Shown: positions 6,201 through 58,153, numbered from the stretch's first letter. The stretch: 64,000 bases of DNA from Candidatus Woesearchaeota archaeon (GCA_016185705.1 JACPMZ010000007.1:107157-171156), one strand, 5' to 3'. Numbers and translations are program-made. Notes: generated from the letters alone by a model not told the origin.

Positions 6201-6233
6201 TAATTTTTTCTGTTCTAATAATTATCGGCCTTA

Positions 6234-6363
6234 TTGACAAGTTCACGCAGCCTCGCTCTGCTGCTGGCTTCCCTCCCTGCTTTTTCCCCCCCTTGAATAT
6301 TCAGGGGAGGGAAAAAGCAGGAAGAACGGCGGGATAAACGCAGCGGTAAAATGAACTTTTCAA
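6234..6363. mobile_element. MITE-like element family A, copy 1 (TIR TTGACAAGTTCAC ... ATGAACTTTTCAA; internal palindrome)
   Basis: Near-identical copy at 46328-46457 that has perfect 13-bp terminal inverted repeats; intergenic. Confidence 0.6.
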
Positions 6364-6382
6364 TAGCACCTAATTATCGGGT

Positions 6383-6522
6383 AATTTCAAGTTAAGTGGC
6401 AAAACCGTCGCATCCTTCCCTGATTTTTTTCTCCCCCCCTTAAAAAATAAGGGGGGAGAAAAAAATCAGCCAAGCAGGCATCGGCAAGCTCAGGATTGCA
6501 GGACACACAACTTGATATTACC
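6383..6522. mobile_element. Repeat element family B, copy 1 (contains palindrome CTGATTTTTTTCTCCCCCCC-TTAAAAAATAA-GGGGGGAGAAAAAAATCAG)
   Basis: Copies at 11585-11688 (same orientation) and 41752-41893 (reverse orientation). Confidence 0.6.
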
Positions 6523-6565
6523 TAATTATCGCAACTTTTATAACCTAAGCATTCAATTTTAGGGC

Positions 6566-7447
6566 ATGCAGCAGCTTATACATTTAGTCGTCCTTGCAGC
6601 TTTAGCGGTGGGCAGCTACACTGACTTCAAAACGAGGGAAGTTCCTGACTGGCTTAATTACGGCTTAATTGTTTTCGGAGTGGGCGTTAACCTGCTGCTG
6701 TCAATAGTTTTCTGGACATGGAGCTACATTGCCTACAGCATTATAGGACTGGCGCTGTTCATTGGCATAGCATGTGCCCTGTATTATTCCGGGCAGTGGG
6801 GCGGAGGGGACAGCAAAATGCTCATCGGCCTTGGAGCAGTGTTCGGGCTGCCAATATCTTTTGCGTGGCCTTATGTCAGCATGAATGCCTTTCTGATAGC
6901 GTTCTGGTTTAACCTGCTTATGGCAGGGGTTGTTTACGCAATGCTGTGGAGCATATACCTTCTTATAAAAAATTACAGGAAATTCCTGAAGGAAGCAGGA
7001 AAAGAAATGGTAAGGAAGAGAAAAATGAGGCGGCTGTCGCTGGCAGCGGCGATAGCAGCGCTGATTGCAGCAATAGCGATAAGCGACTTCCAGCTGAAAC
7101 TTCTGCTGACAGCAGCAGGGCTGCTCACAATCCTTACAATTTATTACACAATCTACTCCAAAGCAATTGAAAAAGCAGGAATGCACAAGCTCGTAACCCC
7201 AGCAGAGCTTACAGAAGGCGACTGGGTGGTGGAAGACGTAAAAGCCGGCAACAAATTAATTGCCAGCCCCAAAGACCTGGGAGTTACGAAAAAGCAGATA
7301 AAAATCCTGAAGCAGCTTTACGCGAAGCGAAAGATAAGAAAAGTCCTAATCAAAGTCGGCCTGCCGTTCGTGCCAAGCTTTTTTGCAGCGATGCTGCTGA
7401 CCATTCAATACGGGAATCTGTTCATGGCGCTGGCCGGGCTGCTGTAG
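6566..7447 (+). CDS. Type IV prepilin/preflagellin peptidase, A24 family, with C-terminal extension
   Basis: Polytopic membrane protein with the two catalytic Asp motifs SYTDFKTREVPD and GGGDSKML. Confidence 0.75.
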   Translation: MQQLIHLVVLAALAVGSYTDFKTREVPDWLNYGLIVFGVGVNLLLSIVFWTWSYIAYSIIGLALFIGIACALYYSGQWGGGDSKMLIGLGAVFGLPISFAWPYVSMNAFLIAFWFNLLMAGVVYAMLWSIYLLIKNYRKFLKEAGKEMVRKRKMRRLSLAAAIAALIAAIAISDFQLKLLLTAAGLLTILTIYYTIYSKAIEKAGMHKLVTPAELTEGDWVVEDVKAGNKLIASPKDLGVTKKQIKILKQLYAKRKIRKVLIKVGLPFVPSFFAAMLLTIQYGNLFMALAGLL

Positions 7448-7566
7448 CTGCAGCAATCTATGCAATGCTCTGGAGCATATATCTGATAATAAAAAATTAC
7501 AGAAAATTCCTGAAGGAAGCAGGCAAAGTTAATGAAGGAGGAAGCCCGCAGAAAAATACCTGCGCC

Positions 7567-8085
7567 CTAAGGCAACCTGTCCAGCTGCCTCATCATGTAA
7601 TCGCCTTCGCTGGAATCCAGTGTTTTGTCTTCGTCGTTAATGGTGAGCGGCTTTTTCTCATTCTTCTGAAACCCGCCGATGTTCCTGGTTTGTTCCTTCA
7701 GCTGCAGCTCAATTGTTGACAAGTCGTCTTCTGACAAGCGCTTGGGAGCCCAGTTGAAGCCCATGCCGTCGTTTTCTGAGCGGGGAATAATGTTTATGGC
7801 AAAATGGGCAATTTTTTGGCCTGCTGCCAGGCCGTTTTCAATTATTATGTTTGTGCCGTGCACCCTTAATGTTTCGAAAATAGACGTGGAAACTGCGTTT
7901 GCCACGCTGAAAAGATGCCCGGCAAGAAAATCAGGAACCTGCTCCAGAATGGTCAGGTGGTCCTTGGGCAGCACCAGAACATGCCCGAGGCTGGCCGGCT
8001 CAGGGCTCAGAGCAACCACTACCCTGTCGTCCTCGTAAATGTGAGTGCCGCTTTCAGCAATTTCGCAATAATCACACTTTGCCAT
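7567..8085 (-). CDS. HIT-superfamily protein, degenerate histidine triad (AHFAINIIPR)
   Basis: N-terminal CDYCEI and GHVLVLPKDH motifs typical of HIT proteins; triad reduced to a single His. Confidence 0.65.
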   Translation of the reverse strand: MAKCDYCEIAESGTHIYEDDRVVVALSPEPASLGHVLVLPKDHLTILEQVPDFLAGHLFSVANAVSTSIFETLRVHGTNIIIENGLAAGQKIAHFAINIIPRSENDGMGFNWAPKRLSEDDLSTIELQLKEQTRNIGGFQKNEKKPLTINDEDKTLDSSEGDYMMRQLDRLP

Positions 8086-9505: not shown

Positions 9506-10077
9506 TTCTTCTGGTTTCTTTGCTTCTGTGATGTCTTTGAGTTTATCAAAGTGCGGCGTCGTTGAAAAGTTGCCTTCACCGCTGCTTTTATTCTGCCTGT
9601 CCTGATTTTCCCCTCCCTTGCTATTTAAGGGAGGGGAAAATCAGTAAGCAAGCCAGCAAAACAACCTGCGCACATGAACTTTTCAATATCGCCTGAGAAA
9701 TAGCTGTGCAAACCACCAAAATTATATATCACTGCACATTCACAACGGCAAGGACACCGGTACGTTGGCAGAGCAGCACCGCGGCTCCTTTCGGGGAGTA
9801 GGCAGCTTTGCCCGCACCGTCCAAACATCACTGCCGTCAGCTTATTTGAGTTCTCTTCATGCCTGCTTTATTTCTCCCTTAACCTTGCAGTATCTCCGCA
9901 ACTGGCGTTTTTCCTGCGCAGTTCGGAGAAAACCAAGAGCTGCTGCAGGCAGAGGTGCTGTAAAAAGCAAGTGACGGGAAAGCGGGCATGGTGAAGGCAT
10001 AGAGGCAGCACACGCAAAACTTTAAATATAGCTGAATACAGTTTCTACTGCAATCATTTGGGGCAAAGAGGTGCAAC

Positions 10078-11536: not shown

Positions 11537-11584
11537 CATGCAAAAAGACAAAAAGAAGTATTATAAAAAGCTTGCTATCCTGCT

Positions 11585-11688
11585 CTGATTTTTTTCTCCA
11601 CCCCTTGAAAAATAAGGGGGGAGAAAAAAATCAGCCAAGCAGGCATCGGCAAGCTCAGGATTGCAGGACACACAACTTGACATTACCC
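11585..11688. mobile_element. Repeat element family B, copy 2 (lacks 5' 30 nt)
   Basis: About 95% identical to 6421-6522. Confidence 0.6.
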
Positions 11689-11915
11689 TATCCTGCCGGT
11701 ATCCGCGCAGGTAACTTGCCCGCCTGCAGCCACGCCCTGTTTCCTCGTGTTATTACTTTGCGCTGCTTTTTTCCACACCATAATACAGTAGCCCTGCATG
11801 CGCATGCTCTTGTTTTCTGCCAAAGATGGCAGTTATTGACAAGGGAAGTAGAGCGTTGAAGGAAAAAATAGTCCGGTTGCCGAGACACTGCTTGCGGCTC
11901 TCGCATGAAAAGCGC

Positions 11916-12392
11916 CTATCTTCTTCTCCGTCTCCCGGATTTCCTTTGAATCTTCCGCGATCTAAGCGCTTTCCGGAGTTTCCTGCGCTTCAGCCTTGAC
12001 CTTCGCTGCCTTCTGCGCAGCTTGCCGGACTTCCTGCGCTCAAGCAATGCACGGTGCTTCTTGACAACCTTGCGCAGTTCGTTAACCCGCTCTGTGATCT
12101 TTCTCACTAAAGTTTCCTTAGTCTTAACGCGGGCAATTTCCCTGGCTAATTCCTTGTCGCCAACCTCATCCCTAATCCAAACCTCAAAGTCATTCCTATC
12201 GCGATTCACATGATAACGGAAGGTGTCATCATCCACCTCCTCCAGCACCTTAGCCAGCGAGAACAAATTCCTGAGGTTGTCGTTTGTACAGAGCCAGAAC
12301 GGAATAGAAACCTTGCCTAAAATTCGCCGAGCATCTGAATATTGCACTGGTCTTTTCATCGTCAAAAAATCACTTTCATGACGACGAACCAT
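11916..12392 (-). CDS. Hypothetical protein with extremely basic Arg/Lys-rich C-terminal tail
   Basis: 158 aa; N-terminal globular part (FRYHVNRDRNDFEVWIRDEV), C-terminal 60 aa about 60% R/K. Confidence 0.5.
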   Translation of the reverse strand: MVRRHESDFLTMKRPVQYSDARRILGKVSIPFWLCTNDNLRNLFSLAKVLEEVDDDTFRYHVNRDRNDFEVWIRDEVGDKELAREIARVKTKETLVRKITERVNELRKVVKKHRALLERRKSGKLRRRQRRSRLKRRKLRKALRSRKIQRKSGRRRRR

Positions 12393-12684
12393 TCCATATA
12401 TAAATAACTTTCTTTACAACTAAATGGTGGTTGCATAAGCTTTTAAAGAGCATGCGGGCGGCGCTGCAAATGTCATTGCCCGCGTTCTCCGGCTGACTTT
12501 AAGCTTCACTTCTGCAGGCGCTTCCTTTTTTCCATCCCTTAAATTGCGAGGGAGGAAAAAAGGAAGCGCGAAGAAAAGCAGTCGCGATGTGAGCGGCAGT
12601 CCTATATACTATATATGCTATCAAATCAGCTATAAAACCTTTATAATAAAGCTTAAATAGGCAGACTGCTCAGATGACAATTTG

Positions 12685-12965: not shown

Positions 12966-14255
12966 ATGCCAGAATTTATGAGTGTTATCCCAGTAACCAT
13001 TAAGGAAATGCAACGAGATTCTACATGGGACTTTGCTACTGCTGATACTAAGGAATTTACTCATTGCTTCCATTCTTATCCTGCCATGATGATTCCACAA
13101 GTTGCTAGAAAAATGCTGAAAATTTATGGGAAACAGGATAGCTCACTCATTGACCCTTTTATGGGTAGCGGCTCGGTTCTTGTTGAAGGGATGCTACACG
13201 AACCTATCACTAGCGCTTATGGATTAGATATAAATCCTTTGGCTATTTTAATAGCAAAAACTAAAACTACACCAATCAAACCGCAACTTTTGGAAAACAC
13301 GTTTTCTAAAATTTTGTCTGAATTTGATAAAAAAAAGAACACTGATCTTGGTTTCTATAATCTAACTAACATTAAATACTGGTTTAAAGAGCAAGCTATT
13401 AATGACTTATCCAGACTTAAAAGTTCAATTGATGAGGTAGATAACGGCAAGATTAAAAATTTCTTTCTGGTTTGTTTTTCAGAAACAACTCGTAAAGTAT
13501 CAAATACCCGTCCAGGTGAATTCAAGCTATACCGGATTAATGAAAAGAAGTTAGCCAATTATTTGCCAAATACCCTTGAGGTATTTACCCATGTTGTTAA
13601 GCGCAATATCAAAGGTATGCACTCATTTTATAGCGCATTCAACTATTTAGACAAAAAAACTGCCATAAATATTTACAAGGAAGACAGCCGAACAAAGACG
13701 TCAATCCCTTCGGAATCTTGTGACATTTTGGTGACTTCACCACCATACGGAGATTCAAGAACCACTGTAGCTTATGGGCAGTACAGCAGATTAAGCTCGC
13801 AATTATTGGGATATTCTTATGACGAAATAAGGCGGGTGGACCAGAACGGTTTAGGAGGAAAGCGCTCATATAAAGAAAACAATCTTGATTCGCCGCACCT
13901 GCAATCTGCATTGGATAAAATATCTGCGGCTGATGAAATTCGTGCTTTAGATGTGCTTGCTTTTTATGAAGATTTCAATAAGTGCATAACCGAAATAGAT
14001 CGTATTATGAAACCTAATTCACATCTTTGTTTTGTTGTCGGCAACAGAACTGTCAAAGGAGTAAAAATCCTAACTAACGCCATAATCGCAGAATTGTTTG
14101 AGTCTAGAGAAAACTATTCTCATTTGAAAACGATAATCAGAAAAATACCAAATAAGAAAATGCCTAAAATCAATAGTCCAACTAACGTAAAAGGCGTTAC
14201 AGGGCAAACAATGGATGAAGAATACCTCCTAATTCTTAAAAAGCTTAATTGCTAA
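12966..14255 (+). CDS. DNA methyltransferase of a type II R-M system, probably N4-cytosine-specific (motif I DPFMGSGS, motif IV TSPPYGD)
   Basis: FxGxG before SPPY with about 170 aa between them (alpha-class order); strong SD TAAGGAGGT; low-GC island. Confidence 0.8.
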   Translation: MPEFMSVIPVTIKEMQRDSTWDFATADTKEFTHCFHSYPAMMIPQVARKMLKIYGKQDSSLIDPFMGSGSVLVEGMLHEPITSAYGLDINPLAILIAKTKTTPIKPQLLENTFSKILSEFDKKKNTDLGFYNLTNIKYWFKEQAINDLSRLKSSIDEVDNGKIKNFFLVCFSETTRKVSNTRPGEFKLYRINEKKLANYLPNTLEVFTHVVKRNIKGMHSFYSAFNYLDKKTAINIYKEDSRTKTSIPSESCDILVTSPPYGDSRTTVAYGQYSRLSSQLLGYSYDEIRRVDQNGLGGKRSYKENNLDSPHLQSALDKISAADEIRALDVLAFYEDFNKCITEIDRIMKPNSHLCFVVGNRTVKGVKILTNAIIAELFESRENYSHLKTIIRKIPNKKMPKINSPTNVKGVTGQTMDEEYLLILKKLNC

Positions 14256-14537
14256 GACGGGCTGTGTTGAAAACCTCGCTTCCAGTAACTTTGCCAGTCC
14301 GCTGCCTTTTCATCTTCCCCTAATTTTTAAGGGGAGATGAAAAGGCAGCGGTTGAAAATGTAAGAATCGTGGAAGCGATATGTCACATTTTCAACAGAGT
14401 CTGATAAGACGGTACTTACTCAACTGAACTTTTATCCTCAGCGCATATATCCACCCTCCCTTAACTTTCGTAGGGAGGAGGAAATAGAGCGCAGTTGTGA
14501 GCAAGCGAAGTTGAGCAATGCAGGTACTATAAGAAAA

Positions 14538-15245
14538 CTACATTATCTGTTTTCTATGGCTGAAGCATAATTCCAACTTATCTGGAAGCACTCTAAATGC
14601 GGTGCCGTGATCGTGCGTTCTTCCGTTAGAATACTGGCCAATTCTGATATCAACCATTATTGTCCCTTCTTTCAGAAGGTTTAAAAAATTTTCAAAATCA
14701 AAGCCATTCAATAGCCAAGTTTCGTTAAACCAAAACATCTCTTGTTTACCGTCCCCGTTTACATCTGCTTTTACGTACATCAGTCTTGGAAGCTTTCGCT
14801 CAAAAGATTCTCTTAAAGTATTTTTGTCCCAATAACCAAATGATTTCCCATCTGGCGTCACTAGCTCTATTTTGTTGGTACTAATTTTAATCTTAAATCC
14901 TGGTTTGCCTTTCAAATTATTGAAATCAACAGCATTTACTGTTGAATGCAACTTCTTTTTGTTATTGCCTTTTGCAGATGGATAACCAAATTGTTTCAGC
15001 AACAAAGAATTAGCCTTTGGCGGCAAGGGAGATTTTGTAAACAGAGTAAGCAAGCTCTTAGTGTGCTTCCTAGTAGACTTAAGCTCAAGCATTAGACCAT
15101 TTGGGCCAGGCACATTATTTTCCTTTATTTTCAGTTCATCCTCCAAAGTTTTTCCAATACCAGTATTTCCAGCTCTATGCGTCTTAATATATCCCAAATC
15201 TTTAAGTCGCTTCAAATCCTGCACAAGCGCAGCATAACCGATCAT
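14538..15245 (-). CDS. Type II restriction endonuclease, MvaI/BcnI-like (from-memory resemblance)
   Basis: Convergent partner of the MTase; segments GNTGIGKTLEDELKIKENNV, LLTLFTKSP, HDHGTAFRV resemble BcnI/MvaI as recalled. Confidence 0.5.
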   Translation of the reverse strand: MIGYAALVQDLKRLKDLGYIKTHRAGNTGIGKTLEDELKIKENNVPGPNGLMLELKSTRKHTKSLLTLFTKSPLPPKANSLLLKQFGYPSAKGNNKKKLHSTVNAVDFNNLKGKPGFKIKISTNKIELVTPDGKSFGYWDKNTLRESFERKLPRLMYVKADVNGDGKQEMFWFNETWLLNGFDFENFLNLLKEGTIMVDIRIGQYSNGRTHDHGTAFRVLPDKLELCFSHRKQIM

Positions 15246-23793: not shown

Positions 23794-24037
23794 AAAGCAT
23801 GCCGCAACTGCCTATGGAATAAAAAGTTTGTGAGAAAATGGCAATCTCAGGCAAACTGTTTTTTTCAGCTGCCTGCCCTCACCTTTTATTCCCTCCAACT
23901 TTTAAGGGAGGGAATAAAAGACGAGAGACAGAACAAGCAAAAGCTGTCATCACAGGAAAAAATCAGCAGGGCTGGCGCAAACCGGAAAGTTTACTTTATG
24001 CAAACATATTTATACCAGATTATTAAAAGTTTTAATA

Positions 24038-24511: not shown

Positions 24512-24737
24512 AGATTTCGTTTCTCTGCCTCGCAATGTTTTTTATCGCCAGCTTCCTTTTTTCCTCCCTTCGCAAAGGTGAGAGAGGGAAAAGGGAAGCT
24601 GGTTTGTTGCTGTGAGAGAGGGCTGCAAAGTTTTGTCGTCTACAAAACAAAAAGCTTTAAATACAGGATAATTACATGAAGAGAAGTCACGACGAGAAAA
24701 GCGTCTTGATGATAAAAAAGATAAGGGGGATGCAAAA

Positions 24738-24968
24738 ATGGCTGAAAAAGTAGCAAAGGTTGGAATAAAGAAGGAAGACGGATACCTGTATTTCGTTGAC
24801 AAAAAAGGCAACGTAGGCAGAGCAAAGATGGTTCGCGGTGGAAGAAAGAAAGGGAAACAGAAACAACAGGTAGTTGCCAAGGTTGGCGTAAAGAAAGCCA
24901 AGGGATACCTTTACTTCATTGACAAGAAAGGGGATATTTCCAGGGCAAAGATGGTGCGCGGGAGATAA
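24738..24968 (+). CDS. Small basic protein with internal tandem repeat KVG(I/V)KK..GYLYF(V/I)DKKG..(G/S)RAKMVRG
   Basis: 76 aa; two 30-aa repeats; A-rich RBS-like stretch upstream. Confidence 0.45.
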   Translation: MAEKVAKVGIKKEDGYLYFVDKKGNVGRAKMVRGGRKKGKQKQQVVAKVGVKKAKGYLYFIDKKGDISRAKMVRGR

Positions 24969-25624: not shown

Positions 25625-25705
25625 TCTGCAAATTTCATCACGTCGGTATTTAAAGTTATTGCTTTCAACCCAGTATCTCCGAAACTGCCTTAGTTCCATC
25701 CACTG

Positions 25706-25757
25706 CGCTCTATTTCCTCCTCCCTCGAAATTTTAAGGGAGGAGGAAATAGAGCGCC
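25706..25757. repeat. Perfect 52-bp palindromic hairpin (GCGCTCTATTTCCTCCTCCC-loop-GGGAGGAGGAAATAGAGCGC); right half repeated at 14467-14490
   Basis: Direct inspection; member of the intergenic GC-stem hairpin family. Confidence 0.7.
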
Positions 25758-25881
25758 GCAGCACGAACCGCCCCGGATGCAATCGGAGATGCTGTTCAAA
25801 TATCATGGCGATGAAACACGGGAAAGCTGACGTTGCCCAAATCAGCAAAATTTATAAATAAGCCGTGGTAGCTAACGAAGC

Positions 25882-29119: not shown

Positions 29120-29344
29120 TTACCTTTTATACCTGTACATGTACTGGTTTGCCCGGCCAGTGGGCCTGTACAATACCTGCTTGGACTTGCGCAGCTTGGA
29201 CAGGTTGTTTATTACAGAGCCTGTAGAAACCTTCAGGTTCTTGGCTATCTCCTTGGAGGTAAACCACTTAACCCTGAACTTTTTCAAAAAATCGCTGACT
29301 TCCTGTTGTCCCATTTTTTCTTCCCCTAAAGAATGTCTGGACAC
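29120..29344 (-). CDS. Small winged-helix DNA-binding protein
   Basis: 74 aa; FTSKEIAKNLKVSTGSVINNLSKL HTH-like segment. Confidence 0.4.
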   Translation of the reverse strand: MSRHSLGEEKMGQQEVSDFLKKFRVKWFTSKEIAKNLKVSTGSVINNLSKLRKSKQVLYRPTGRANQYMYRYKR

Positions 29345-29947
29345 TGGAGACTAGTATTTAAACCTAACGATTTAGGGGGTGCCGAAAAATGCCACTATCA
29401 GTATCGCAACCCCCAGAAATATGCCATAAATAATCAATGTTGCAACAGTCTGATAGCCCAGACATGCAAATGCCCTTTTAAGAAAACTATCGGAATTCAG
29501 CCATCCTTTGTAGCTGTGCGTGTCTGCTTTCGGCTTTTTCTCAGGCATGGGCTGGAAAATATGTTCTTATTTATAAACCTTTTTGCTGCAAAGGAGTTTG
29601 TCGACTAATTCACCTTGCTGCCTCTTGCGCTGCTTTTTCTCCCCCTTAACTTTCGAAGGAGGGCAGATAAGCAGCGCGGCAGTGAACAGGTGCGCAACAC
29701 CAAATCGACAAACTCGCTGCAAAGGATGGCTGAAGATGAAATGGCTCAAGCCGGGAAGGAACAATAGGGAAGAAAGGATAAATTTTGTTGAATACCGGGC
29801 ACACTATGTCAGAACACATCCCTGCAAGGAATGGAGCCGCCAGCAGAAAGTTCTCATCAACAGCATCATACAAAGCGCAAGGAGCGTCAGGCTCACACCA
29901 AGGCAGTATCTTGGGATAAAGGGCGAGGTTTGCAGGCGGCAGGCTGC

Positions 29948-36224: not shown

Positions 36225-36341
36225 GAAAATGGGAAATTGAAAGCGTTAATAAAGATTGCTGCTTTGAAGACGCTTGGCCGCTTTTTTTCCCCCCATTAAA
36301 AATCATGGGAGGCAATAAAAAGCACAGGTGCGAGAAAAACA

Positions 36342-36816: not shown

Positions 36817-37002
36817 TTACAAGTCGCTGCAGTCAGTTTTGAAACCGCAGTTAGGGCAGATGTAAGTGCAGTGCACCCTCTTAATTGTCGTTCCGCACAT
36901 AATGCATTCCTCAGGGCTCACGCTTAAAACATTTTGCACATATAAAGCCAATATGCGGAGTTTTATTAATTTATCGCTGGACCGCTTAAGCACTCGCCGC
37001 AC
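36817..37002 (-). CDS. Zinc-ribbon protein (61 aa, CxxC...CxxC)
   Basis: ECIMCGTTIKRVHCTYICPNCG. Confidence 0.4.
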   Translation of the reverse strand: MRRVLKRSSDKLIKLRILALYVQNVLSVSPEECIMCGTTIKRVHCTYICPNCGFKTDCSDL

Positions 37003-37113
37003 TCCTTATTTTCTCCCTCCCCTGACTTTAGGGGAGAAAATAAAGAGCAATGAAGTGCGTTTTTGGATACGGACAGCGAAAGTTTTATATAAGCTCTTCC
37101 CCCTTTTTGCTGC

Positions 37114-38569: not shown

Positions 38570-38792
38570 ATAGCGGCATTGCTTCAGGCATTGTTTATAA
38601 ATTTTTGTGGTGTGTGAAGTCAGCTCCTCAAGTATCTGCCTTTATCCTGCCAACTCAAATTCCAATCCCCCAACTCAATTTCACGCTGCGCTGCTTTTTT
38701 TCCCTCCCCTAAAATTTAAGGGGAGGAAAAAAAGCAGCGGGGACCCTTACATTTGCGAAAGTCTAATAAGCCAGTGCAGTAATTGTGTGTGA

Positions 38793-40811: not shown

Positions 40812-41134
40812 ATTTTATAATTGGCGCTTTTACCGCTTGCATCCCCCCTTAATGTTCAGGTGTAGATGAAAGGGCAGCGGATTTGCGGCTGGTGTTTTGC
40901 TTGGCTTGTTTCCTGATTTTCCCCTCTCTCAATATTTAGGGAAGGTAAAAACAGGGCAGCTTGGAATTAGTTTCGAAGGCAACTTTTCAATTATGCAGTT
41001 TATTTTGTGCTGTTTTGAAAATCTTACCTTCAGGCGCCCATGAACTTTTCATCGCTTCATGACCAAAATAAACGATAGATTTAAATAGTGAAATATGCAA
41101 TACCCCTCCTAATTACAAAAAGAGGTGTTTTATA

Positions 41135-41751: not shown

Positions 41752-41893
41752 GGGTAATGTCAAGTTGTGTGTCCTGCAATCCTGAGCTTGCCGATGCCTG
41801 CTTGGCTGATTTTTTTCTCCCCCCTTATTTTTTAAGGGGGGGAGAAAAAAATCAGGGAAGGATGCGACGGTTTTGCCACTTAACTTGAAATTA
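41752..41893. mobile_element. Repeat element family B, copy 3 (reverse orientation, full length)
   Basis: Reverse complement of 6383-6522; ends 12 bp before a tRNA gene. Confidence 0.6.
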
Positions 41894-41905
41894 TTCTTGC
41901 TGACA

Positions 41906-41990
41906 GGGCCTGTGATCTAGCGGCTATGATGCTTCCTTGACTTGGAAGATGTCCCCAGTTCGAAACAAAGCGAGAGTCTGGGCGGGCCCA
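41906..41990 (+). tRNA. tRNA-Val (anticodon GAC)-like gene with 12-nt insertion after T-loop position 60
   Basis: Acceptor GGGCCTG/CGGGCCC, anticodon stem CTTCC/GGAAG, loop TTGACTT (U37 unusual), T-stem CCCAG/CTGGG split by CAAAGCGAGAGT. Confidence 0.4.
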
Positions 41991-44572: not shown

Positions 44573-44809
44573 GAAAACACACCAACGCGGCAATATATAA
44601 ATTTTTTTGGCAATTCAGCATAATAAGATCGCTTTTGTAATATCTATTCTTTACCTCGCACAATAGCGCTGCTTTTTTCCCTCCCCTTAAAATTTAGGGG
44701 AGGGAAAAAAAGCAGCGGTTATCAGCGCAAAGAGGACAGCAGCGTGAATCATTGGCAGGGGAATCAAATACCCAAAAGCTTTATATTTGCATAAAACGCT
44801 TATTAAGGC

Positions 44810-46309: not shown

Positions 46310-46327
46310 TAGTAAAACGCATTAATA

Positions 46328-46457
46328 TTGAAAAGTTCACGCAGCCTCGCTCTGTTGCTGGCTTCCCTTCCTGCTTTTTCCCTCACCTGAATATTTAAGG
46401 GAGGGAAAAAGCAGGAAGAACGGCGGGATAAACGCAGCGGTAAAGTGAACTTTTCAA
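46328..46457. mobile_element. MITE-like element family A, copy 2 (perfect 13-bp TIRs TTGAAAAGTTCAC/GTGAACTTTTCAA)
   Basis: About 93% identical to 6234-6363; between convergent genes. Confidence 0.65.
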
Positions 46458-46557
46458 TAGCACCTGCGCTTTGCCAAACAGCAATTGAACAGCCCTTTTG
46501 CAATTTGCTGTTTACGCATTCTGCGCTGTCCGATTCTGCAATACGCCATGCGGCAGT

Positions 46558-50066: not shown

Positions 50067-50267
50067 TTTAAATTCGTCTGAAATACCTCTAATTTTCCCA
50101 CCATGCTCCTCTGCTTCTTAACCACCATCCGATGATTTTTTCCCTACCCTGAAATGTCAGGAGAGGGAAAAAAGCAGCGGGAATAAAAAAGTCCCTTGGA
50201 GCGCTTTGTGCTTAGCGAACAAACAGAAACGGAAAGTCTTATAAATATTTTGCCACGCACTATTGCT

Positions 50268-57343: not shown

Positions 57344-58153
57344 TCACAAATCATCAAGCGGGCTCTTGACTTTTTTCAGCTCTTCCGTCGAGACTCTGGT
57401 GTAAATTTGCGTGGTTTGGAGGTTGGCGTGGCCCAGCAGCTCCTGTATTTTGCGGATGTCGGTGCCTGATTCAAGAAGGTGCGTGGCAAAGCTATGGCGC
57501 AGCGTGTGCGGGCTTACCTTTTTCCTTATGCCTGCTTTCAGAGCTGCCCTGGCAACTATTTTCTGCACGTTCCTTGCTGTCATCGGCTGCCCTTTTTTGT
57601 TCGTCAAAAGCAGCCGGTTTTCACTCATATCAGGCATGTAATCCTTAATAGCTGAAATAAGCCCGTCTGAGAGTATTATCAGCCGGTCCTTGTTGCCCTT
57701 GCCTTTCCTCACCCAGCCAATCTTTTCGCTCAATTCAAGGTCATTTAAGCGCAGATTAAGGCATTCTGAGAGCCGAAGCCCGGATGAGTACAAAAGCTTG
57801 ATAATAAGCCTGGATTTGGCGCTTTTAGCGTGTTCTATGAGCCTCCTGACCTCTACCTTTGTTAATACTGCCGGAAGGCGCTTATCGACTTTTGGGGTCT
57901 TCAGGTTGACTATATTTTTCTTAAGCAATCCGTCGTAGAAGAATTTCAATGCAGCTTTCACAAGCGCCACTGATCTGGCAGACAGCTTCCTGTCACCAAT
58001 AAGGTAGCCCAGATAGTACTTTATGTCTTCCTCGACGACAAACTGGGGCTCTTTTTTGATGAATTGGAGAAACTTTTTGTTGTGCAATACGTATGCCATA
58101 ACTGTCCTTTCGCTGAAGCCGCGAAGCTTAAGCTCTGAAACAAGCTCATCCAT
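57344..58153 (-). CDS. xerA: Tyrosine recombinase XerA/XerD-like
   Basis: R..HTLRHSFATHLLESGTDIRKIQELLGHANLQTTQIYTRV with catalytic Tyr. Confidence 0.9.
   Translation of the reverse strand: MDELVSELKLRGFSERTVMAYVLHNKKFLQFIKKEPQFVVEEDIKYYLGYLIGDRKLSARSVALVKAALKFFYDGLLKKNIVNLKTPKVDKRLPAVLTKVEVRRLIEHAKSAKSRLIIKLLYSSGLRLSECLNLRLNDLELSEKIGWVRKGKGNKDRLIILSDGLISAIKDYMPDMSENRLLLTNKKGQPMTARNVQKIVARAALKAGIRKKVSPHTLRHSFATHLLESGTDIRKIQELLGHANLQTTQIYTRVSTEELKKVKSPLDDL

What the first reader, a model, noticed from the sequence alone, without database searches (positions are those of the whole stretch)
6234..6522. Two families of miniature inverted-repeat-like elements, one with perfect 13-bp TIRs, in at least five copies
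Element A (about 130 bp) occurs at 6234-6363 and 46328-46457 at roughly 93% identity. The second copy is bounded by perfect terminal inverted repeats TTGAAAAGTTCAC / GTGAACTTTTCAA and has a central palindrome CCTGCTTTTTCCCCCCC-loop-GGGGAGGGAAAAAGCAGG. Element B (about 105-140 bp) occurs at 6383-6522, 11585-11688 and, reverse-complemented, at 41752-41893; it carries the palindrome CTGATTTTTTTCTCCCCCCC-TTAAAAAATAA-GGGGGGAGAAAAAAATCAG. A and B abut at the first locus. Degenerate solo-terminus remnants (ATGAACTTTTCAAT) sit at 9676-9692 and 41046-41060, and 9596-9692 is a diverged composite copy. All copies are intergenic, and one ends 12 bp before a tRNA gene. The ORF track places spurious ORFs inside them. 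I do not recognise them as a described element.
Basis: seen in the sequence. Interest (0 to 1): 0.7.

Follow-up and report, generated by a model that had tools for sequence, protein, structure and literature searches.

The report
Active hairpin-cored MITEs in a Woesearchaeote
The repeats are real miniature transposons of about 143 bp in an uncultivated DPANN archaeon: they make 9-bp target duplications, some copies are present or absent between strains in the wild population, and they belong to a much larger family (19 copies in 64 kb) that shares one conserved central hairpin.

Summary
The window comes from a Candidatus Woesearchaeota MAG.

- **Element structure.** A, B and three further subfamilies (C, D, E) are 122-143-bp non-coding elements. 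They have 11-18-bp terminal inverted repeats. A1, B1, B2, B3 and E are flanked by 9-bp direct repeats and C by an 8-bp one; no such repeat was found around A2, A3 or D.
- **Empty sites.** I found three. A syntenic relative lacks A1+B1. Independent assemblies of the same population lack B2 or B3, each with a single copy of the 9-mer that is duplicated in the filled allele.
- **Other copies.** A fourth B copy truncates a GNAT gene on another contig. A C-type end sits at a contig end in a second species.
The central palindrome is shared. A covariance model finds 19 such hairpins in this window and none in 1.13 Mb from 80 relatives. The hairpin has the form variable outer stem-T(4-7)-CCCYCCCC-AT loop-GGGGRGGG-A(4-7)-outer stem. 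Its arms co-vary.
- **Likely transposase.** The termini of C, A and E resemble the IS903 inverted repeat (up to 14/18), and the 9-bp duplication matches that IS5 subgroup. No transposase lies in the window.

These are new families of a known kind. The role of the hairpin is unresolved.

The parts
6219..6227 (.). First copy of the direct repeat TAATTATCG (left target-site duplication of A1)
   Evidence: TAATTATCG(G) at 6219 and 6371, spacing 152 = 143 + 9.
6228..6370 (+). Element A1, 143 bp. TIR 6232-6245 / 6352-6365, central hairpin 6273-6324.
   Evidence: Absent from the orthologous FttA-peptidase spacer of L064 and from L002.
6371..6379 (.). Second TAATTATCG: right duplication of A1 and left duplication of B1
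6380..6522 (+). Element B1, 143 bp. TIR GGTAATTTCAAGTT / AACTTGATATTACC, hairpin 6415-6474.
   Evidence: Absent from L064.
6523..6531 (.). Third TAATTATCG (right duplication of B1)
   Evidence: The L064 empty site reads ...ATCAATCG|CAACTTTTATAA.
9555..9693 (+). Element A3, a diverged A-type copy of 139 bp with both termini. Hairpin 9600-9646. No TSD found.
11575..11583 (.). Left target-site duplication of B2 (CTATCCTGC)
   Evidence: It is present once in the empty allele L089.
11584..11687 (+). Element B2, a one-armed B copy of 104 bp: the hairpin plus one arm and its TIR. The other arm is deleted at the base of the hairpin.
   Evidence: 97% to B1. L089 lacks it exactly; L090 has the full-length B end at the same site.
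11688..11696 (.). Right target-site duplication of B2 (CTATCCTGC)
11758..11780 (.). Half-core remnant (GCGCTGCTTTTTTCCACACC)
12516..12571 (.). Core-only hairpin h12518
   Evidence: 68 bits. Fixed in Logan contigs L089 and L102.
14260..14404 (+). Element C, about 143 bp. Termini GGCTGTGTTGAAAACCTC / GACTCTGTTGAAAATGTG (reverse complement), hairpin 14299-14351. Flanked by TAAGACGG at 14253 and 14405.
   Evidence: 14/18 to the IS903 IR. The same terminus occurs at the L064 contig end.
14439..14494 (.). Decayed D-type core h14455
   Evidence: (D8, I9).
23875..23928 (.). Core-only hairpin h23876
24547..24603 (.). Core-only hairpin h24548
25663..25801 (+). Element D, about 139 bp. TIR ..CAGTATCTCCGA / TCGGAGATGCTG.., hairpin 25703-25758. 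No TSD found.
29594..29715 (+). Element E, 122 bp. Perfect 11-bp TIR GAGTTTGTCGA, core 29625-29679. Flanked by GCTGCAAAG at 29585-29593 and 29716-29724.
36273..36329 (.). Core-only hairpin h36275 (degenerate)
   Evidence: Present in L107 and L108, judged from unchanged gene spacing.
37000..37049 (.). Core-only hairpin h37000
   Evidence: Present in L107 and L108, judged from unchanged gene spacing.
38686..38742 (.). Core-only hairpin h38689. It is 96% complementary to h44667 over 51 nt; the flanks are unrelated.
   Evidence: (I3).
40860..40990 (-). Decayed A3-like element. Core 40906-40961; terminus match at 40975-40990.
   Evidence: (I5).
41034..41051 (+). Solo A3-type right terminus (GCGCCCATGAACTTTTCA)
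41753..41893 (-). Element B3, 99% identical to B1. Its right end and 37 nt of flank (CC + AAAGTCCCG + 26 nt) are deleted in this allele.
   Evidence: The empty allele is L092; the full insertion with the 9-bp TSD AAAGTCCCG is seen in L095 (right junction) and L093/L094 (left junction).
44664..44720 (.). Core-only hairpin h44667, the closest copy to the consensus
   Evidence: Present in L092 and L095.
46326..46464 (+). Element A2. Perfect 15-bp TIR, hairpin 46367-46418. The left outermost bases differ from A1 and no TSD was found.
50127..50182 (.). Core-only hairpin h50128
   Evidence: Present in L111-L114, judged from unchanged gene spacing.

Best explanation
These are non-autonomous DNA transposons (MITEs) of a Candidatus Woesearchaeota genome.

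Anatomy. A full element is about 143 bp: an 11-18-bp terminal inverted repeat, a poorly structured arm, a 50-60-nt central hairpin, a second arm and the second inverted repeat.

Mechanism. A DDE transposase supplied in trans by an autonomous insertion sequence elsewhere in the genome binds the two termini. It inserts the element at a 9-bp staggered cut, and repair of that cut produces the 9-bp direct repeats. This step is inferred. The partner is most likely from the IS5 family, IS903-like group, judging from the 9-bp duplication and from the termini of the C, A and E types.

Activity. Subfamily B is currently or very recently active, because copies are 97-99% identical and present or absent between strains of the same population.

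Decay. After insertion the elements lose ends by deletion. B2 has lost one arm exactly at the hairpin base. B3 has lost its last two bases plus 35 nt of flank. Many loci are reduced to the bare hairpin.

The hairpin. It is the one module shared by all subfamilies, and its two arms co-vary. I infer that it is retained because it helps the element. Two possible ways are folding that brings the termini together, or acting as an orientation-independent oligo-T stop for archaeal RNA polymerase that makes insertions less harmful. Neither role is shown.
For: Shown by tool results:
- **Host.** Archaeal gene content (FttA/aCPSF1, L21e, Rpo4/RpoF). The FttA protein equals MBI2664355.1 of a Candidatus Woesearchaeota archaeon.
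- **Dispersed near-identical copies.**. A fourth B copy forms the C-terminus of GNAT protein MBI2663787.1 on another contig and is not in the window. The GNAT domain is cut at profile position 122 of 138.
- **TIRs and folding.**
- **Flanking direct repeats.** TAATTATCG (A1, B1), CTATCCTGC (B2), TAAGACGG (C), GCTGCAAAG (E). Spacing is 152 = 143 + 9 for A1, B1 and C.
- **Empty sites.** L064 (FttA 87% identical, syntenic) has a spacer of about 56 bp where the window carries A1+B1, with the right flank ATCGCAACTTTTATAA conserved. L089 lacks B2 and has a single GCAGGATAG. L090 carries a full-length B end at that site. L092 lacks B3 and has a single AAAGTCCCG. L095 together with L093/L094 shows the full insertion with AAAGTCCCG duplicated.
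- **Lineage-specific expansion.** The hairpin covariance model finds 19 loci in 64 kb and none in 1.13 Mb of 80 relatives. There is one weak hit among the 7 nearest relatives with filters off. A C-type end lies at a contig end of L064.
- **Hairpin arms co-vary.** 89% of cells are paired against 72% in shuffles. Eighteen of 22 pairs show changes on both sides.
- **IS903 lead.** I retrieved the IS903 IR, GGCTTTGTTGAATAAATC. The C left end matches 14/18, the E left end 13/18 and the A ends 11-12/18. Only 64 of 127,964 18-mers in the window reach 12/18. The IS903 subgroup duplicates 9 bp (PMC8431375).
- **Age pattern.** Core-only hairpins are fixed in all population contigs examined, whereas B copies are polymorphic.
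Against: - No transposase is present in the window (Pfam on 60 ORFs). The rest of the genome could not be read, so the partner is unidentified.
- The B terminus GGTAATKTCAAGTT matches the IS903 IR at only 6-8/18.
- A2, A3 and D show no TSD.
- The C 'TSD' is uncertain. GACGG also precedes the C terminus in L064, so it may be part of the element or a preferred target.
- The deletion junctions of B2 and B3 are seen only in the MAG-derived window, not in an independent contig.
- h38689 and h44667 share 96% over exactly the 51-nt hairpin with unrelated flanks. This fits arm loss less comfortably than it fits independent spread of the hairpin.
- The covariation counts come from a model-fitted alignment that includes both strands.
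Confidence: 0.88

Rival explanations
1. The 50-60-nt hairpin is itself the primary repeated unit: a REP-like or IS200/IS605-type palindrome-associated element spread by a Y1 (HUH) transposase. Alternatively it is a module captured repeatedly. The TIR-bearing 143-bp elements would then be composites that carry it.
For: The hairpin is the only part shared by subfamilies with unrelated arms and different termini. h38689 and h44667 are 96% alike over exactly the hairpin, with unrelated flanks and no TIR or TSD. About ten loci are hairpin-only.
Against: Every element with demonstrable insertion junctions has a TIR plus a 9-bp duplication, which Y1 transposases do not make. No empty site was found for any hairpin-only locus; all are fixed in the population contigs. 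B2 shows that an arm can be lost exactly at the hairpin base, which gives a route to hairpin-only remnants. No TnpA_Y1/RAYT gene is in the window.
Confidence: 0.15
2. The hairpins are host regulatory elements, chiefly bidirectional transcription terminators (an oligo-T run on both strands). Selection, not transposition, placed and kept them after genes.
For: Each hairpin has T(4-7) on both strands, which archaeal RNA polymerase reads as a stop (established knowledge). Several lie 14-60 nt after stop codons. The arms co-vary.
Against: Five of 17 intergenic sites lie between divergently transcribed genes with no 3' end to terminate (ORF-based gene calls). The hairpins are absent from orthologous positions in the nearest relatives and from 1.13 Mb of relatives overall. 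Filled and empty alleles coexist in one population. FttA already has its own T6 run immediately after the stop, upstream of A1. Terminators do not come with TIRs and 9-bp duplications.
Confidence: 0.05
3. The repeats are assembly artefacts or a local segmental duplication in a metagenome-assembled genome.
For: The window comes from a MAG. Contigs of independent assemblies break at these elements.
Against: Independent Logan assemblies from several runs reproduce the junctions: the B3 left junction (L093, L094), the B right junctions (L090, L095), and the C, h12518 and h44667 loci. The copies are 5-40 kb apart and on another contig, in both orientations, with unrelated flanks.
Confidence: 0.02

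Closest known systems
Prokaryotic MITEs in general, for example the archaeal MITEs counted in the census of PMC11602168. That census lists 'a Woesearchaea genome' at 105 MITEs/Mb among the densest archaeal genomes.
   Same: Small non-coding elements with TIRs, target-site duplications and many dispersed, mostly intergenic copies. They fold into long hairpins and are specific to a narrow taxon.
   Different: The census gives counts only. These sequences, their 9-bp duplication, their population polymorphism and their shared hairpin core are not described there. I could not check whether the genome is the same one, because no supplements are held.
IS903 (IS5 family, IS903 subgroup) and its non-autonomous derivatives
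   Same: A 9-bp target duplication (PMC8431375). The 18-bp terminal repeat GGCTTTGTTGAATAAATC resembles the C terminus GGCTGTGTTGAAAACCTC (14/18), as well as the E and A termini.
   Different: IS903 is a bacterial, autonomous element of 1057 bp. No cognate transposase has been found here. The B terminus is not alike. The resemblance covers 18 bases only.
Correia/NEMIS elements of Neisseria and ERIC/IRU elements of enterobacteria
   Same: Intergenic imperfect palindromes of 100-160 bp with TIRs, at high copy number. Their insertion can add terminators or processing sites (my own knowledge, not tested here).
   Different: Correia elements duplicate TA rather than 9 bp. Neither family has a conserved central hairpin shared across subfamilies with different termini. 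Both are bacterial.
REP elements with RAYT transposases, and IS200/IS605 palindrome-associated elements
   Same: Short extragenic palindromes at high density. The hairpin-only loci look like this.
   Different: Those families have no TIRs and make no target duplication. The elements here have both wherever junctions can be read.

Membership tests
MITE (non-autonomous DDE-transposon derivative) | Short (under about 300 bp) and non-coding | tested here: met
   Length is 122-143 bp. Six-frame translations give only short incidental frames. Those frames have no homologues apart from a GNAT fusion.
MITE (non-autonomous DDE-transposon derivative) | Terminal inverted repeats | tested here: met
   A 15 bp perfect (A2), B 13/14, A3 14/17, C 13/18, D 10/12 over its clearest stretch, E 11 bp perfect.
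MITE (non-autonomous DDE-transposon derivative) | Target-site duplication of fixed length | tested here: met
   9 bp at A1, B1, B2, B3 and E; 8 bp at C. None found at A2, A3 or D.
MITE (non-autonomous DDE-transposon derivative) | Empty sites that hold one copy of the duplicated target | tested here: met
   L089 for B2, L092 for B3, L064 for A1+B1.
MITE (non-autonomous DDE-transposon derivative) | Multiple dispersed copies in the genome | tested here: met
   19 core-bearing loci in 64 kb, and a B copy on another contig. A whole-genome count was not possible.
MITE (non-autonomous DDE-transposon derivative) | An autonomous IS with the same termini in the same genome | not testable with these tools
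   None in the window. Exact 22-mers of B gave no hit in genome contigs or metagenome contigs, so the source assembly is not held there (the A 22-mer was scanned only against viral contigs).
IS5 family, IS903 subgroup (as parent) | 9-bp target duplication | tested here: met
   The subgroup property is taken from PMC8431375.
IS5 family, IS903 subgroup (as parent) | Termini like the subgroup's inverted repeat (GGC...GTTGAA) | tested here: inconclusive
   C 14/18, E 13/18, A 11-12/18, but B only 6-8/18, against the IS903 IR read from L106. This is a post-hoc comparison with one reference element.
IS5 family, IS903 subgroup (as parent) | A DDE_Tnp_1 transposase bounded by these termini | not testable with these tools
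REP/RAYT or IS200/IS605 palindrome-associated elements | No TIRs, no target duplication, insertion next to a fixed 4-5-nt target | tested here: not met
   TIRs and 9-bp duplications are present at A1, B1, B2, B3 and E (8 bp at C). This is undetermined for the hairpin-only loci.
REP/RAYT or IS200/IS605 palindrome-associated elements | A Y1 (HUH) transposase gene in the genome | not testable with these tools
   None among the window ORFs scanned with Pfam. The rest of the genome is unavailable.
Transcription terminators (host-encoded) | Placed at gene 3' ends and conserved at orthologous positions | tested here: not met
   Five of 17 sites lie between divergent genes. Absent from the orthologous L064 and L002 spacers and from relatives in general.
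Transcription terminators (host-encoded) | Transcript 3' ends map to the T-runs | not testable with these tools
   No transcriptome data.
Described structured RNA (Rfam 15) | Match at or above a family's gathering score | tested here: not met
   Only tRNAs pass in the window. On the elements the best hits are generic miRNA-precursor models at 35 bits or less against cut-offs of 48-230 bits.

The most novel reading that the evidence does not exclude
The conserved 50-60-nt hairpin (outer stem-T run-CCCYCCCC-AT loop-GGGGRGGG-A run-outer stem) is an independent functional or mobile module. On this reading it is an archaeal REP-like unit or a selected portable bidirectional terminator or insulator. 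It would have been recruited repeatedly by MITEs with unrelated termini, or would spread on its own without target duplication. MITE families would then be held together by their cargo rather than by their ends.
Probability: 0.2. Interest if true: 0.6.

Novelty: new member of a known kind. Interest (0 to 1): 0.4.

Why it matters
DPANN archaea have small, streamlined genomes and cannot yet be grown alone, so direct evidence of ongoing transposition in them is scarce. In this case filled, empty and partly deleted alleles of the same sites coexist in natural groundwater populations. That gives natural markers for strain tracking and for estimating transposition and deletion rates in an uncultivated lineage.

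The elements also have practical effects:
- They break short-read assemblies; contigs end inside them.
- They create false ORFs and false protein C-termini. One example is a GNAT protein in NCBI nr whose last 44 residues are element sequence.
- In one allele, a deletion next to an element removes the TATA-like box of a tRNA-Val gene.

The hairpin shared across subfamilies with different termini is unusual for MITEs. It points to a selectable function that Term-seq could test.

Tried and rejected
- **Collection scans for more copies.** An exact 22-mer of B gave nothing in genome contigs, metagenome contigs or viral contigs, and an exact 22-mer of A gave nothing in viral contigs. A family-specific gapped hairpin pattern in metagenome contigs gave one chance hit that is not a hairpin. 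A looser hairpin pattern in viral contigs gave three unrelated phage hairpins. BLASTN of A1+B1 against phages and plasmids gave no match.
- **Finding copies through spurious ORFs.** A concatenated translation of A and B found one protein, the GNAT fusion, which was useful. The same trick for C, D, E, A3 and the core-only loci found nothing.
- **Terminator hypothesis.** Rejected as the primary explanation, because of the gene contexts and the absence from relatives.
- **Promoter hypothesis (AT loop as a TATA box).** Considered and rejected from the sequence. Downstream gene starts lie 40-420 nt from the hairpin centres, not at the expected spacing of about 25-35 nt.
- **A retroelement-like 5' truncation for B2.** Rejected, because a full-length B end occupies the same site in L090.
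- **ORF 1592-2512 as a hidden IS.** No termini flank it.
- **MAFFT alignments of the hairpins.** They were out of structural register. I used an ungapped six-sequence seed for the covariance model instead.
- **Ungapped positional comparison of A, B and C.** Uninformative, because the hairpin sits at different offsets in each.
- **One wasted script.** A first tblastx run accidentally hit many loci at once and was redone.

Full report
**1. Observation**

The repeats exist as described. A1 (6232-6370) and A2 (46326-46464) are 93.5% identical over 139 nt. B1 (6380-6522) and B3 (41753-41893, reverse strand) are 99% identical over 141 nt. B2 (11585-11687) is 97% identical to B1 over 103 nt. A2 carries a perfect 15-bp terminal inverted repeat, and B carries GGTAATTTCAAGTT / AACTTGATATTACC. 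The remnant near 41046 matches A3's right end. Full elements fold far better than shuffles, with z-scores of -6 to -10 on both strands.

**2. Host**

The window encodes FttA/aCPSF1, ribosomal protein L21e, an Rpb4-like RNA polymerase subunit, aminoacyl-tRNA synthetases and intron-bearing tRNAs. The FttA protein is identical to MBI2664355.1 from a Candidatus Woesearchaeota archaeon, on a 250,522-bp contig. The nearest species representatives share 87-89% FttA identity.

**3. A larger family**

The central palindrome is not private to A and B.
- Repeat finding and a palindrome scan showed the same design at many sites. The design is a variable GC-rich outer stem, T4-7, CCCYCCCC, an AT-rich loop near TTAAAATTTA, GGGGRGGG, A4-7, and the complementary outer stem.
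- A covariance model built from six copies finds 19 loci in the window at E below 0.05, each on both strands as expected for a palindrome.
- On the model-fitted alignment, 89% of cells pair against 72% in shuffles. Eighteen of 22 pairs show changes on both sides, and slid controls fall to 56-68% paired. The fitting and the inclusion of both strands inflate these numbers, but each individual copy is visibly a near-perfect palindrome.

**4. More subfamilies**

Several other hairpins sit in the middle of elements with their own termini.
- C (14260-14404): GGCTGTGTTGAAAACCTC and, reverse-complemented, GACTCTGTTGAAAATGTG.
- D (25663-25801): CAGTATCTCCGA / TCGGAGATGCTG.
- E (29594-29715): a perfect 11-bp GAGTTTGTCGA.
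- The locus at 40860-40990 is a decayed A3-like copy.
- About ten loci are reduced to the hairpin alone.

**5. Evidence of transposition**

*(a) Flanking direct repeats.*
- TAATTATCG lies left of A1, between A1 and B1, and right of B1.
- CTATCCTGC flanks B2.
- TAAGACGG flanks C.
- GCTGCAAAG flanks E.
- Start-to-start spacing is 152 (143 + 9) for A1, B1 and C. An exact 8-mer repeat anywhere in these flank windows occurs around 14% of random centres, so the evidence lies in the fixed spacing and the position directly outside the termini, not in the repeats alone.

*(b) Interspecies empty site.* In L064 (RIFCSPHIGHO2_02_FULL_45_15; syntenic from the proteasome gene to the HIT gene) the spacer between FttA and the peptidase gene is about 56 bp. 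It reads ...CATCAATCG|CAACTTTTATAA.... The window has TAATTATCG-A1-TAATTATCG-B1-TAATTATCG followed by the same CAACTTTTATAA. L002 also lacks the elements.

*(c) Population empty sites.* Logan contigs from the same groundwater runs encode identical flanking proteins.
- At the B2 site, L089 has a single GCAGGATAG and no element. L090 has a full-length B end (...CCACTTAACTTGAAATTACC) abutting GCAGGATAG. The window has a one-armed B2 between two copies of the 9-mer.
- At the B3 site, L092 is empty, with a single AAAGTCCCG followed by TAAAGCTTATATAC.... L095 shows ...ATTACC|AAAGTCCCG|TAAAGC.... L093 and L094 show AAAGTCCCG|GGTAATG.... Together these give a 9-bp duplication. The window allele has lost the last two bases of B3, the right-hand copy of the duplication and 26 nt of flank.

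*(d) A copy elsewhere.* A translated-element search found GNAT protein MBI2663787.1. Its last 44 residues are B sequence, and its acetyltransferase domain stops at profile position 122 of 138. Its N-terminal part is not encoded in the window, and the gene lies on a different contig of 238,850 bp. Its accession number falls in the same series as that of the window's FttA protein, which I take to mean the same assembly.

*(e) A second species.* The L064 contig ends inside a C-type element, GGGCTGTGTTGAAAATGCGCTTCC...CGCTTTTTTCTCCCCCTC.

**6. Lineage specificity**
- The hairpin model finds nothing in 1.13 Mb from 80 relatives. With filters off it finds only one 21-bit hit in the seven nearest.
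- Long palindromes are about 20 times denser here than in relatives.
- The half-core motif is about 9 times denser.
- Contigs of independent assemblies repeatedly stop inside the elements. This means short-read MAGs under-report them.

**7. What they are not**
- No Rfam family reaches its threshold.
- There is no similarity to phage, plasmid or viral-contig collections.
- They are not primarily terminators. By ORF-based gene calls, 5 of 17 sites lie between divergent genes. Orthologous sites in relatives lack them, and filled and empty alleles coexist.
- They are not IS200/IS605- or REP-type elements wherever junctions can be read, because those families make neither TIRs nor duplications.

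**8. Mechanism**

*Shown.* The elements have TIRs and 9-bp duplications. Insertions are precise. They were recently active. They decay after insertion by terminal deletion.

*Inferred.* They are mobilised in trans by a DDE transposase. From memory, the C terminus resembled the IS903 inverted repeat. I checked this by retrieving IS903 from a Klebsiella plasmid. Its ends read GGCTTTGTTGAATAAATC.
- The C left end matches 14/18, the E left end 13/18, and the A-type ends 11-12/18.
- Only 64 of 127,964 window 18-mers reach 12/18. Two of the ten positions reaching 13/18 are element termini.
- The IS903 subgroup of IS5 duplicates 9 bp (PMC8431375).
- This makes an IS5/IS903-like partner the best guess. 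It is not a membership claim. The B terminus does not fit, and no transposase was found in the window. The rest of the genome is not in the searchable collections.

**9. The hairpin**

Its conservation across subfamilies whose arms and termini differ is the least ordinary feature.

*Arm loss.* B2 lost an arm exactly at the hairpin base. Core-only loci are fixed in every population contig examined, while B is polymorphic. Both points fit the view that core-only loci are old remnants.

*Independent spread.* h38689 and h44667 are 96% alike over just the 51-nt hairpin, with unrelated flanks. This keeps open the reading that the hairpin spreads or is recruited on its own.

I put that reading at about 0.2. 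A role as an orientation-independent oligo-T stop is plausible from archaeal termination biology but untested.

**10. Novelty**

MITEs are a known kind. A census has already listed 'a Woesearchaea genome' among the archaeal genomes densest in MITEs, at 105 per Mb (PMC11602168). That paper gives no description of such elements in its main text. I found no paper describing these sequences.

I therefore file this as new families of a known kind. They come with unusually direct population evidence of activity and an unexplained shared core. Interest is moderate, at 0.4.

Noticed in passing
window 41906-41990 (+): A tRNA-Val(GAC) gene that ARAGORN and Rfam both miss. It carries a 10-12-nt insert in the T-loop. 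Deleting the insert in silico gives a clean tRNA-Val call.
   Followed up: yes
window 41890-41905, compared with L092 and L095: In the window allele the deletion next to B3 removes TAAAGCTTATATAC.... This includes a TATA-like box at about -32 to -26 upstream of the tRNA-Val gene. The box is present in both the empty allele and the full-insertion allele, so the tRNA may have lost its promoter in this strain.
   Followed up: partly
L089 about 985-1025 (corresponds to window ~11821): One population contig carries an extra 41 nt, CAGCTGCTTTTTTCCCTCAACTGAAACCAGTATCTCCGCAG. It is made of a half-core plus the D-type terminal motif and is absent from the window. The same intergenic region also holds a half-core at 11758-11780 and an A1-like TATTGACAAG at about 11822.
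   Followed up: partly
window 9888-9914: A solo copy of the D-type terminal motif (CAGTATCTCCGCAACTGG...), 81% identical to 25671-25697, with no hairpin nearby.
   Followed up: no
window 6935-7004 and 7459-7528: A 70-nt direct repeat at 89% identity. Part of the type IV prepilin peptidase gene is repeated in the next small ORF (7465-7719).
   Followed up: no
window 24749-24838 and 24872-24961: Two 90-nt direct repeats at 76% identity, 123 nt apart, inside ORF 24738-24968 next to hairpin h24548. This may be a repeat-containing small protein.
   Followed up: no
window 12966-15245: A convergent restriction-modification pair: a DNA methylase and an MvaI/BcnI-family endonuclease. Element C and the decayed core h14455 fill the 282-nt gap between their stop codons.
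   Followed up: partly
window 29585-29608: Element E inserted inside the last codons of ORF 29333-29608. The present C-terminus ...EFVD* comes from the element. Removing the element restores ...DG*.
   Followed up: partly
window 25638-25699: The annotated start of the ribulose-phosphate 3-epimerase ORF (25699) lies inside element D. The Pfam domain starts at residue 28, so the true start is probably the ATG at 25638.
   Followed up: partly
window 57344-58153 (-): A XerA-like tyrosine recombinase (Phage_integrase plus an N-terminal SAM-like domain). It shows no evident link to the elements.
   Followed up: no
L064 5947-5993: The related species has a different 47-nt palindrome with a CCTCC/GGAGG core (gctcacttagttccctcct...aggaggaggctaagtgagc) in an intergenic region. 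It also has a weak core-like hairpin at 12214-12269.
   Followed up: no
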